Shown here piece by piece: positions 5,273-9,264 of a DNA stretch of 64,000 nucleotides. Source of the stretch: Isurus oxyrinchus. Its lineage: Eukaryota. Made by a program: the position numbers and the translations under genes. The notes under the pieces are model-generated. The model was not told the origin of the DNA. It was given only the letters and a program-made list of their open reading frames with translations, and ran no database searches. The DNA is taken from positions 1,116,001 to 1,180,000 of the forward strand of contig JANJGN010000035.1 in NCBI GenBank assembly GCA_026770705.1, in the 5' to 3' direction. Every line of letters starts with the position of its first letter. Positions within the stretch are counted from its first letter, which is position 1.

Positions 5273-5389
5273 AAAACAAAAATAGAATTACCTGGAAAAA
5301 CTCAGCAGATCTGGCAGACCTGCTGAGTTTTTCCAGGTAATTCTGTTTTTGTTTTGGATTTCCAGCATCCGCAGTTTTTTGTTTTTATC
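5273..5389. mobile_element. Palindromic Penelope-associated/MITE-like element with a 41-bp-arm hairpin
   Basis: Arms 5273-5313 and 5315-5355 are inverted repeats matching 39/41. A near-identical half copy lies at ~4354-4433. Confidence 0.75.
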
Positions 5390-5918
5390 CCACTCCTGTT
5401 GTGTCCAGCCTCCTGCTGGGCCGCCGTCTTGCATTTGTGCAGCAGCTGTTTATTATTCGGTTCGGCTCTGTCTCTCCCGTCACTGGTTCTCCATCATGTC
5501 GATGGTGCTGTCTCATGAACTCCGAGAAGGTAACGCATTCGCTTATTAAAATCACAAGAGAGACGCTCTTTTACTGAAACATTTGGTCCCAGACCGAATG
5601 TTTAGTTCACCATCCAGCAGCTCCTGGGAATTACATGCAATACATTTAATTTCTTTATAAATGCCTGGCGACTGGTTGATATGTGCACTCACCGTTGACT
5701 GTCTCAGTGACCTTTAAGGGTAAAGGCTTCCTCCCGTCTGCTGTAGAAGCTGTGCCCCTGCAGCTTGAGTTCAGAAGGACATCACTAGTGAAGAGTGCAT
5801 GCACCAGGCGGCTTATAACCAGATTTCTCTTTTCTAAATATTTCAGAGTCTCCAATTTTTCTGGTGCAACAAAAAATATTTGACGATGTTGCACTTTCAC
5901 TTTCTCTTGCCCAGGTTT
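5385..5918 (-). pseudogene. BEN-domain exons (NACC1/2-like BEN fold), 3' part of a decayed multi-exon gene
   Basis: Exon 5918-5693 (TTTCAG acceptor, GTGAGT donor) reads KPGQEKVKV...RNLVISRLVHALFTSDVLLNSSCRGTASTADGRKPLPLKVTETVN. It joins in frame to 5521-5385, EFMRQ...ETEPNRIINSCCTNARRR. The second acceptor reads GG instead of AG. Confidence 0.8.
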
Positions 5919-7221
5919 CTGAAAGTTAGGGAATTAATTTGAGATCCTGATAGTCTGATGGCTGCAAATGCGTGTTGCTGCTAAAACACGATAGGATGTG
6001 AAAACTGGACAATGTGCTTTCATGTCCTGAGTGAATTGTACTTGCCTCAAATCTTCATTCCCACTCCCATTCTTCAATCCTGCCTCCTGGAGGTATTCTT
6101 TGTGTGAAAATGCGGCTCTGCATCTATGTAATTTCGGCATTAATAGGTGGTTGATTGGCAGTTACCCCCTGAGGTCGGTATAATGCTGGGAATAACTGCT
6201 GGTCGCTTTGAAAAATATTATTAAAAATGTTTCAATGATGGACATTGAACCATCGTAAAGAGCGAGTCAAAGCGTGATCGCTGCGATTTCTCTTTTAATT
6301 TCCCAACCTGGTGGCAAGAATCACTCAAACCGTCGAGGCTGAACTAGGCAGGCCACTATATGCCTTACAGAGCGATAGAGCAAGGACTTTCTTCCTTCTC
6401 TCCAATGTAACATCCCTGACAAGGCCGGCATCCCCATCCTTTGAGAATAGTTAAGTGTCAACAACATTTCTGCAGGCCAGGCTGGGCAAAGGGCAGCAGA
6501 TTTCCTTCCACACGGGACATTTATGAACCGGCTTTTTTTTACAACAACCGACGATACTCTAATGTTGGCCAGCATTATTTAAATTAATTTTATATCTCAG
6601 AATGTCTCAACTGATTTGAAATTCGATCAGCTGCCATAGTTGGATTTGAACCTATGTCCCCTGAGTACTAGCCTCTCTGGATTACTAATCCAGTGACATC
6701 ACCAGAAAAAAAGGCCAGTCAATTGATGTAGGTACCATTGTCTCTGATCAATTGCTTGTGAGTATATTCTTGGCAAATTCAAAGGTGAGAACATGATGTG
6801 ATCTCTCAGTTTGACCTAAATTCACATATTGTTGGGAGGGTTCCACAAGCACTCACCCACTTTTCATCTTCACGCCTGCTGTCAATTGCCACTGGGACCA
6901 ATGGGGCCAAAATTCTCCCGCATGAGCTTTCCAGGATTCACAGCTTCAATGGAAAGGGGAAAGTCGCTGGTTGCTTTATCTTGCTCTCCAGAGGAATCCA
7001 AGGGCTATAGATTCAGAAGCTGTGGAGGGGGCAGAAGGGCGGGGGGCACGTGGGGATGATCCACGTGAATTTCCTTACATTCAATTGCAGGATCTCTATT
7101 CACACACCTCTGTTTTCAGGTGCCTCAAACAATTCATCATAATGCGCAGGGACCCGGCAATCACTGACTGTAGAGGAAGCTGCTGATTTGTGGAGTGCAG
7201 CATGGAACAGGGAAATCTTAC

Positions 7222-9264
7222 CCAGTTTGTCACACAGAGGAAATGCTAGTGCCTTGGTCCAGCTGTTAAATTGAGCCCGTGGTCTATGGTACTCTGCACA
7301 CAGGATACCATTCTCTTGCCTCTGGGCTTCTACTTCAGCCTGTCATACTCGTTGTCTGACCACTGATATTTATGGAGATGGATAAAGTGGTGTTGGATCT
7401 GCGATGCTGGACTGTGCATGTGCATTACCCACCCATGTAAGTTCAGCTGTTACCAAAGGAAGCTCAGCAGAATGTGACTTTGAAAGCAGCTGGTGAGGGG
7501 CTCTGATTGGCCTGATGTGGCTGTTGTCATTCTGACTGGGGGCTAAACGTTGAGACTCAGCCTCATGCTGCCATTTGTCCTTCCCTCTGGCTGCCTCACT
7601 TGGCTTCTTTCCGCTGTCACTGTACAGAGTGGTAGTTTTCACCAATGCTGACCACTGCTTGGTGCCACCGGTGGAGGTTCACACCGTCCTGTTGGTAGGT
7701 CGTTCCTCCTCCTGATGATCCTCCAGCTTGGCCATTAACCCTGCACACTTCTGTCGGCTAGTCTACAATCTAGGTCCAGGTGAATGACACTACTTTCCCT
7801 TTTTTCTGTGCTGAGCCACTCCCATTGCCATGGAGTCCAGCGGCAGGAGGGTGCACACTGCCCTTGGTCTACATTTTATTGACCTTCTGTGCGCTCGCTC
7901 CTGCAGCATGGTCAGCAGCAGCGCCCAGCTGCAGATCAGCAGGTTGCTGAGCGGTCCTCAGCTCCTTCTTTAACTCCGCAAGAGTAATATTTGAATGTCT
8001 TAGAAATCAGTCAATTCACAATGAATAGGATTGAATAAAAGGGTTCTTTGTTTATTGCAGCTATTAATATCTGCCTCTGTAACAGTGCAATGATCATTGT
8101 TTGTGCTGCACTCTGACGACAAGAACCTAAATCATTTACATGAGTTCACTATTGCAGGCGGTCAAGTTGATCCTCTGAGAAGGGATGGCTCATACCAAAC
8201 AGATAGCCTGGAAGTCCACCAGCGGCAACGCGCCCAGGAAGCAGCTGGCCTCCAAGGCAGCCCAGAAATATGCCCCCTCCACTGGCGAAGTGAAGAGATC
8301 TCATCGCTACAGGTTGGGTACTGTTGCACTCTGAGAAATCTGCCGATGCCAGAATTCCATATAGAGTTGTTTATCCGCAAAGTGTCCTTCCAGCGCCTGG
8401 TGAGGGAAATTGCCCAGGGCTTCGAAACTGACCTGAGGTTTCAGAGTGTGGCAACTGGAGCATTGCAGGAAGCCAGTGAGGCCTAGTTGGTTGGCCTGTT
8501 TGAGGACACCAACCTGTGTGCCATCCATGTCAAAAGAGTGACCGTTATGCCCAAAGACACCCAGCTGGTACAACGGATCCGGGGGAGCGTGCTTAAACTC
8601 TTTGCTTTATTACTTCACCTCCAGACTATTTTGAAGTGATATTCAAACATTTTCTAAAACATTATTGGACTGTAGGTTTGGCTTCTTGTGGACGCTGGGC
8701 CTTTATTTTGTATTTTTGTTAGTTTTGAGTATTGATCGTGTCCTAAAGTGGAAATATCGAAACATTTTGTAAACATTCCTTCGAACTCTTGCTCAGGTTG
8801 GAAAGTAAACTTTAGTATCTTTTTAAAAAAATGAAATGGTCGTGTTTGACCTATACACTCCCAACTAAACGGGAGCATTGAAGAAATTATTGTGCAGAGT
8901 GATTTTTTTTAAACAGTTTTCTGGCTAGTTTTGCACTCTACATTGTTCGCCATGACCCCAGGCCTATTTACTAACCTCGCTTTTCCCTGTCACTGCGGCC
9001 TACCCTATGTTACAGGAGGAGAAAATAAAGAACAAATGCTTCCACTTATTCTCAAAACTTTCCCCAAGACCTTTCCTCGTCCCTTCCATTTGAACAGCGC
9101 GTCCCCCCTTCCTCTCGATCCTTCTTGTCGCTCATGGCATACAGCGGCTCAATCCTGGTCAGCAGCTCCGCGATCTAGAAAACCAAACATAACTTCTGGG
9201 TCGCTGTGGCTTGCTCTGCTGGGGACGCTGAGTCCTTGGCAGCAATAAGGTAACTGATGTCCAG
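7222..9264 (-). pseudogene. 5' exons of the BEN-type gene, copy 1 (N-terminal module ~9264-9041; linker and coiled-coil exon ~7998-7222)
   Basis: DISYLIAAK...QKLCLVF*...GKVLRISG; HSNITLAELKKELR; EVEAQRQENGIL; GTAAG donor at 7221-7217; in-frame stops. Homologous translations occur in copies 2 and 3. Confidence 0.6.
8185..8596 (+). pseudogene. Intronless histone H3.3-type pseudogene (probable retrocopy)
   Basis: ATG to TAA spans 412 bp of H3. It has H3.3-type APSTG (S31) and [12 protein letters not shown] (G90). Lesions include nonsense codons (CTC-TGA, GCC-TAG) and frameshifts. No introns and no histone stem-loop. Confidence 0.92.

What the first reader, a model, noticed from the sequence alone, without database searches (positions are those of the whole stretch)
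5385..9264. Hidden multi-exon BEN-domain gene (BEND5-like architecture, NACC-like BEN) amplified within a tRNA cassette
Seen: two minus-strand exons join in frame to give RNLVISRLVHALFTSDVLLNSSCRGTASTADGRKPLPLKVTETVNEFMRQ...NRIINSCCTNARRR. Upstream exons encode a coiled coil (E.LRQENG.LR.ENERL) and an N-terminal module (LCLVFWI...IEPLSAM...VKWKG...GK.LK.SG), and these recur in all three cassette copies with surviving splice signals. Known: this pattern resembles the NACC1/NACC2 BEN domain (L.RL...F....L.NS..G......RKPL...CTNARR). BEND5-type proteins combine an N-terminal module, a coiled coil and BEN, and BEN domains are DNA-binding repressor/insulator modules also found in viruses and mobile elements. 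Inference: a lineage-specific, tandemly amplified BEN gene family without BTB. All copies here are disabled (stops, a GG acceptor at 5522-5523), although the BEN reading frame itself is still open.
Basis: partly seen in the sequence, partly recalled or inferred. Interest (0 to 1): 0.75.

Follow-up and report, generated by a model that had tools for sequence, protein, structure and literature searches.

The report
Broken shark-type BEN DNA-binding gene
A real but broken spliced gene for a NACC-like BEN domain (predicted to bind DNA) lies in one of three old, decaying repeats of a histone/tRNA gene cluster, likely of a shark; it is probably a fossil of a little-known gene family rather than a working, amplified one.

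Summary
The BEN domain is real. The two exons (5918-5693, 5521-5385) join only through a GG acceptor into 120 open codons, 55% identical over 106 aa to basking-shark XP_078415413.1 (E 1e-38). That protein matches the NACC1 BEN structure sequence (E 3e-8); Pfam BEN stays below cut-off. I found an unlisted exon (6123-6046) that matches the shark protein and carries a stop just ahead of the BEN.

The amplification claim is overstated. Only 1 of 3 repeat copies has BEN exons; B and C keep only the upstream exons. The copies diverged about neutrally (dN/dS 0.75, interval 0.57-1.03), as did a histone H3 remnant nested in the gene (0.85). The 'BEND5-like' N-terminal module found no significant family, homologue or usable fold, and its link to the BEN exons is inferred from order, strand and partly matching splice phases. 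No intact full-length member was found, nor a transposase or terminal repeats.

Verdict: a pseudogene of a BTB-less NACC-type BEN gene, carried along by segmental duplication of a histone/tRNA cluster. I found no paper on the family, but this locus is dead.

The parts
5385..5521 (-). BEN exon 2 (helices 4-5, ...INSCCTNARR); acceptor is GG at 5523-5522; stop at 5387-5385 where a hairpin element begins
   Evidence: 64% identity to P0002
5693..5918 (-). BEN exon 1 (pre-BEN segment, helices 1-3 and loop); AG acceptor, GT donor, phase 0 to 1; a short compensated frameshift near 5899-5870 is possible (weak evidence)
6046..6123 (-).
   Evidence: score 74 against P0002 residues 1-32, next best 38 among 4920 six-frame stretches
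6857..7019 (-). tentative exon E3, present in all three copies; strong donor in A and C; 5' end uncertain
7222..7975 (-). middle linker plus coiled-coil exon of copy A; acceptor CGG (CAG in B and C); stops at 7871, 7372 and 7345; zipper decayed
8185..8591 (+). histone H3 remnant, antisense, inside the intron between the N-terminal and middle exons (also in C ~53110-53560, absent from B)
   Evidence: Pfam Histone E 4.4e-8
9043..9314 (-). N-terminal module exon of copy A; TAG at 9177-9175, 1-nt deletion near 9096, decayed donor; no start codon located
5273..5389 (.). short hairpin (MITE-like) repeat directly behind the BEN stop; related copies elsewhere in the window
4496..4567 (-). intact tRNA-Asp(GTC) downstream of copy A; remnant at 50410-50481 in copy C
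12593..12662 (-). tRNA-Gly(TCC)-like remnant upstream of copy A; counterparts at 24660-24735 (B) and 57039-57110 (C)
   Evidence: relaxed ARAGORN and blastn
18075..24842 (-). repeat copy B: open N-terminal exon 20875-20589, middle/coiled-coil exon ~20192-19458, E3 remnant; no BEN exons, no H3
46092..58282 (-). repeat copy C: N-terminal exon ~54270-53999, H3 remnant, middle/coiled-coil exon from 52925, E3 to 51830; no BEN exons

Best explanation
This is a broken, spliced gene whose last two exons encode a NACC-type BEN domain and whose upstream exons likely belonged to the same gene; it sits in one of three old repeats that were probably copied passively with a histone/tRNA cluster and now likely make no protein. 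Shown: the BEN exons, their homology to a basking-shark protein and through it to NACC1, the lesions, BEN exons in copy A only, and near-neutral divergence of the copies. Inferred: the ancestral protein had an N-terminal module, a leucine-zipper-like coiled coil and a C-terminal BEN. It would have bound DNA by placing helix 5 in the major groove: equivalents of NACC1 T465, N466, R468, R469 and R429 are kept, while D462 reads S and R421 falls in a gap, so the site probably differed from NACC's CATG. It would have oligomerised through the zipper in place of a BTB domain and acted as a repressor or boundary factor. The block was duplicated, presumably by unequal exchange in the cluster; the ancestor of B and C lost the BEN half; all copies then decayed.
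For: BEN identity: P0002 hits NACC1 BEN chains 8yzs/7bv9 at E 3.3e-8 and 5.4e-8; a profile of P0002 with both window exons gives E 2.1e-9 and no other protein up to E 10; Atlas feature score 0.93 to clusters in which 15-33% of members carry PF10523, and 10 of the 10 best family-bearing hits agree. Three consecutive exons are colinear with P0002: 54.4% over 125 aa, 1 gap. DNA-contact residues come from PMC11472053 passages, mapped through the alignments. Dead: stops at 9177, 7871, 7372, 7345 and 6057, a frameshift near 9096, two GG acceptors. Near-neutral divergence: pooled upstream exons dN 0.219, dS 0.29, ratio 0.75 (0.57-1.03, 370 codon pairs); H3 of A against C 0.85 (0.49-1.73, 124 codons); non-coding controls 0.5-3.4. 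One gene: same strand and order; phase 1 fits from the N-terminal to the middle exon, and phase 0 from E3 to the 6123-6046 exon to BEN exon 1, across the point where B and C break off. Context: tRNA and histone loci co-cluster in elasmobranchs (bioRxiv 10.1101/2025.06.08.657570, passages); an H2A remnant with a stem-loop lies at ~62790-63260.
Against: Pfam BEN is below its cut-off of 23.2 bits for exon 1 (13.7 bits, E 0.075) and for P0002 (13.4 bits). The P0002 model was poor (pLDDT 48); NACC1 ranked 4th at E 0.99 in Foldseek and no BEN entry was among the 50 VIA rows. No protein joining the upstream exons to a BEN was found, and P0002 (142 aa, cluster of 1) lacks them. The coiled-coil-to-E3 phase did not fit cleanly. 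B and C hold a segment A lacks, so the BEN block could be a later replacement in A. The dN/dS estimate is below 1 and its interval reaches 0.57, so a period of selection is not excluded; helix 5 is 11 of 12 identical to P0002 against a 62% yardstick (noticed after the fact).
Confidence: 0.7

Rival explanations
1. The gene is the fossil of a transposon accessory gene: animal CACTA/EnSpm (CMC) elements may carry a 'Tudor-like plus BEN' gene beside the transposase, and one such gene was stranded or domesticated in the cluster.
For: Five earlier AI notes of this scan describe such two-gene elements in other animals (unchecked leads). Neutral decay and the absence of an annotated full-length host gene fit a fossil element.
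Against: No transposase family in 112 of the window's 187 open runs of 75 aa or more, nor in read-through frames upstream of the N-terminal exon (A six frames, B and C plus strand). No CACT terminal repeat pair around A or C, one weak 11/15 pair in B without a target duplication, and no subterminal array. The repeat unit includes tRNA and histone genes. The BEN is closest to host NACC1 among solved structures. At 20-30% divergence these tests are weak.
Confidence: 0.12
2. Two unrelated things lie in series: a BEN-only fragment (three exons, as in the 142-aa basking-shark model, perhaps a partial duplicate of a NACC gene) entered copy A behind a different decayed gene that supplies the N-terminal and coiled-coil exons.
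For: BEN block in A only, with a reciprocal unrelated segment in B and C; P0002 covers only the last three exons; unresolved phase at the coiled-coil exon.
Against: E3, shared by all copies, ends in a strong phase-0 donor that fits the next exon; B and C share further changes (a 71-nt gap at the coiled-coil end), which is simplest as a deletion in their ancestor; coiled coil plus BEN is a known layout (BANP, PMC11472053 passages).
Confidence: 0.13
3. The family is alive: copy A is a recently disabled member, and intact, expressed paralogues elsewhere in the cluster act as boundary or repressor factors. This can hold together with the best explanation; it differs in what the locus signals.
For: 120 open codons in the BEN exons; helix 5 nearly invariant against P0002; copy B keeps an open N-terminal exon; an NCBI model exists in basking shark.
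Against: One true homologue among 1.84 billion representatives (the second hit is a repetitive protein). BEN-core identity to P0002 (49 of 76) equals that between dead copies (237 of 384; p 0.36), so P0002 may be another decayed copy.
Confidence: 0.25

Closest known systems
LOC144691243 / XP_078415413.1, uncharacterized protein, Cetorhinus maximus (P0002)
   Same: Homologous to the last three exons without a gap at either junction; 54% over 125 aa.
   Different: Open frame of 142 aa; the model has no N-terminal module or coiled coil; too distant to be this locus; whether it is functional is unknown.
NACC1/NACC2 (BTB-BEN proteins; PDB 8YZS, 7BV9)
   Same: BEN plus preceding segment align at E 3e-8 through P0002; CTNARR helix and equivalents of T465, N466, R468, R469, R429 kept.
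   Different: No BTB found; D462 reads S, R421 falls in a gap; upstream exons encode a zipper and an unplaced module; pseudogene.
BEN proteins without BTB
   Same: Coiled coil ahead of a single BEN is described for BANP.
   Different: No BEN protein other than NACC1 was hit among solved structures; likeness of the N-terminal module to BEND5 is recalled, not tested.
Elasmobranch histone/tRNA clusters (bioRxiv 10.1101/2025.06.08.657570)
   Same: tRNA loci and histone genes side by side.
   Different: 'BEN' occurs 0 times in that paper's main text; here nearly all elements are decayed.

Membership tests
BEN domain | Pfam PF10523 score above the curated cut-off | tested here: not met
   13.7 bits for exon 1, none for exon 2; 13.4 bits for P0002; cut-off 23.2. 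The joined window peptide was not scanned.
BEN domain | Significant sequence homology to a solved BEN domain | tested here: met
   P0002 to NACC1 E 3.3e-8; profile with both exons E 2.1e-9. The single exons alone are not significant.
BEN domain | Five-helix fold with C-terminal recognition helix | tested here: inconclusive
   Single-sequence model of P0002, pLDDT 48; helices at 49-57, 61-72, 98-115, 121-133; fold searches gave nothing significant.
BEN domain | Sequence-specific DNA binding | not testable with these tools
   Contact residues partly conserved.
NACC family | N-terminal BTB/POZ domain | tested here: not met
   No BTB in the N-terminal exon, in open runs of the gene span or in upstream read-through; decay lowers sensitivity.
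NACC family | Base-reading residues D462, T465, R469, R421 | tested here: inconclusive
   2 of 4 kept (T465, R469); D462 reads S; R421 aligned to a gap.
BEND5-type proteins | Homologous N-terminal module | tested here: inconclusive
   No BEND5 sequence was available; the module gave no significant hit and a one-helix model with pTM 0.32.
BEND5-type proteins | Coiled coil ahead of a single C-terminal BEN in one transcript | tested here: inconclusive
   Zipper pattern in B and C (2 hits, 0.12 expected from 100 shuffles; pattern chosen after seeing the sequences); link to BEN inferred only.
CACTA/CMC transposon accessory gene | Adjacent transposase, CACT terminal inverted repeats, subterminal arrays | tested here: inconclusive
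   None found, but the copies are 20-30% diverged.
Amplified BEN gene family at this locus | BEN exons in several copies | tested here: not met
   1 of 3 copies.

The most novel reading that the evidence does not exclude
Sharks have an undescribed family of BTB-less NACC-type BEN genes (novel N-terminal module, leucine zipper, BEN) that lives and dies inside histone/tRNA clusters, with intact expressed members elsewhere that serve as boundary or repressor factors for those clusters, possibly derived from a transposon accessory gene.
Probability: 0.2. Interest if true: 0.55.

Novelty: new member of a known kind. Interest (0 to 1): 0.25.

Why it matters
It shows a NACC-type BEN domain outside the BTB-BEN layout in a vertebrate and gives a name to an 'uncharacterized' basking-shark protein that Pfam misses. 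If intact paralogues exist, they would be a lineage-specific DNA-binding family tied to histone/tRNA clusters, comparable to the BEN-subtype (DUF4806) genes noted in the tRNA-rich block of zebrafish chromosome 4 (bioRxiv 10.1101/2023.12.06.570431, passage). As it stands the locus is a decayed copy and tests no open question.

Tried and rejected
No whole genome is held, so copy number and intact paralogues could not be surveyed. Three word-based protein searches for longer relatives found nothing; the first also missed P0002, which was in range, so these blanks are weak. P0003 (E 3.5e-8) is a repetitive protein and was dropped. Viral contigs: 0 of 5 pattern matches confirmed. Metagenome contigs: 1 of 91 passed, L001, a bacterial contig whose match I judged spurious. 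Sequencing runs: 24 listed, 20 hold part of the stretch (shares 0.21-0.52, two coded organisms), no RNA holder listed; no reads were laid, so these shares are no evidence, and whether the lesions are fixed, shared or bypassed in transcripts is open. Both structure predictions were uninformative and fold searches gave no significant match. The coiled-coil row and pooled value used a wrong frame and were redone; one search had exon ends off by one and was redone. The relaxed ARAGORN list (36 calls) is mostly noise; only those backed by blastn to each other or to the intact tRNA were used. Paper searches for BEN with shark, elasmobranch or transposon terms listed no paper on this family; the library lacks most subscription papers, and I read no supplements (the tandem-gene tables of the shark genome preprint could bear on this). 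Earlier-finding look-ups by sequence and place were empty.

Full report
SETTING. No genome is held for the window. Self-comparison shows three same-direction repeats, A (~4700-17900), B (~18100-24800) and C (~46100-58300), about 69-79% identical in their long aligned blocks. They carry tRNA-Asp and tRNA-Gly-like genes or remnants (1 intact) and, in A and C, a histone H3 remnant (Pfam E 4.4e-8). An H2A-like remnant (named from recall of the translated sequence) with a histone stem-loop lies near 63 kb. A shark origin is inferred from the best protein hit. tRNA and histone loci are known to co-cluster in elasmobranchs (bioRxiv 10.1101/2025.06.08.657570, passages).

THE BEN DOMAIN IS REAL. Exon 5918-5693 has an AG acceptor and the best donor of the region; exon 5521-5385 joins in frame only through GG at 5523-5522, and 0 of 7 nearby AG sites keep the last helix. 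A search of 1.84 billion representatives with exon 1 returned 2 proteins. One is a repetitive artefact; the other, P0002, is XP_078415413.1, an uncharacterized 142-aa protein of Cetorhinus maximus. It runs through both exons: 54.7% over 106 aa, E 1e-38. P0002 matches the NACC1 BEN chains at E 3.3e-8, a three-row profile does so at E 2.1e-9 with no other hit, and the Atlas places it with BEN clusters at 0.93. Against this, Pfam stays below cut-off and the predicted model was too poor to test the fold. By the NACC1-DNA structure (PMC11472053, abstract, outline and passages), helix 5 reads the major groove; the window keeps equivalents of T465, N466, R468, R469 and R429 but not D462 or, by alignment, R421.

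MORE EXONS, MORE LESIONS. A 78-nt exon at 6123-6046 matches P0002 residues 14-30 (score 74, next best 38 of 4920 stretches) and has a TGA at 6057, so the BEN frame is cut off just upstream. A tentative exon E3 (to 6857) is shared by all copies. In A the middle/coiled-coil exon has stops at 7871, 7372 and 7345 and a CGG acceptor where B and C have CAG, the same kind of change as at the BEN exon. The N-terminal exon has a TAG at 9177, a 1-nt deletion and a decayed donor. The H3 remnant lies antisense in the intron between these two exons.

NOT AN AMPLIFIED BEN ARRAY. tblastn finds the BEN exons in copy A only. B and C lack A 4934-6680, share another ~570-nt segment there and a 71-nt gap at the coiled-coil end, most simply a loss in their common ancestor. 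Codon comparison of the upstream exons gives dN/dS 0.75 (0.57-1.03), and H3, normally almost invariant (established knowledge), gives 0.85 (0.49-1.73) between A and C; non-coding controls range 0.5-3.4. BEN-core identity to the shark protein (49 of 76) is no higher than between dead copies (237 of 384), though helix 5 is 11 of 12. The block has thus been decaying since about the time it was copied, and P0002 may be a further decayed paralogue.

THE UPSTREAM MODULES. A leucine-zipper-like pattern is intact in B and C. The N-terminal module is open in B but found no significant family, homologue, Atlas neighbour, PDB match or usable model, so 'BEND5-like' remains a recalled likeness. That these exons belong with the BEN exons is inferred from strand, order and two fitting phase chains; the coiled-coil-to-E3 junction does not resolve, and no protein with the whole layout was found.

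RIVALS. Earlier AI notes describe animal CACTA-type transposons with a Tudor-like plus BEN partner gene. I looked for a transposase, terminal repeats and subterminal arrays and found none, with limited power at this divergence. A BEN-only fragment behind an unrelated gene, and a living family with intact copies elsewhere, remain open.

LITERATURE. Passages were also read in PMC10206803, PMC8887127, PMC11601247 and bioRxiv 10.1101/2023.12.06.570431; other papers were seen as search listings only. Nine searches listed no paper on a shark BEN family. No supplements were read.

VERDICT. A pseudogene of a BTB-less, NACC-type BEN gene inside a decayed histone/tRNA segmental repeat: a new member of a known kind, interest 0.25.

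Noticed in passing
window 28702-29721 (-): Broken single-exon rhodopsin-family GPCR; two open runs hit Pfam 7tm_1 (E 4e-9 and 7.5e-4).
   Followed up: partly
window ~62790-63260 (-): Frameshifted histone H2A-like remnant followed by a histone 3' stem-loop; the H2A name is from recall.
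   Followed up: partly
window 13146-13893 (-), with related pieces at 33112-33982 and 57536-58282: Reverse-transcriptase (LINE-like) fragment, weak RVT_1 hit E 0.028.
   Followed up: no
window 11589-11947, 23834-23975, 56258-56406: 46-nt minisatellite at the same position in all three repeat copies.
   Followed up: no
window 58317-59027: 33-nt minisatellite of about 20 copies at the outer end of copy C.
   Followed up: no
window ~6630-6716 (-): tRNA-like sequence at the point where copy A departs from B and C, possibly the head of a SINE (relaxed ARAGORN; SINE reading is recall).
   Followed up: no
window 14241-17876 and 46092-49757: A 3.6-kb block shared by A and C (74%) lies on opposite sides of the gene in the two copies, which suggests a longer, permuted repeat unit.
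   Followed up: no
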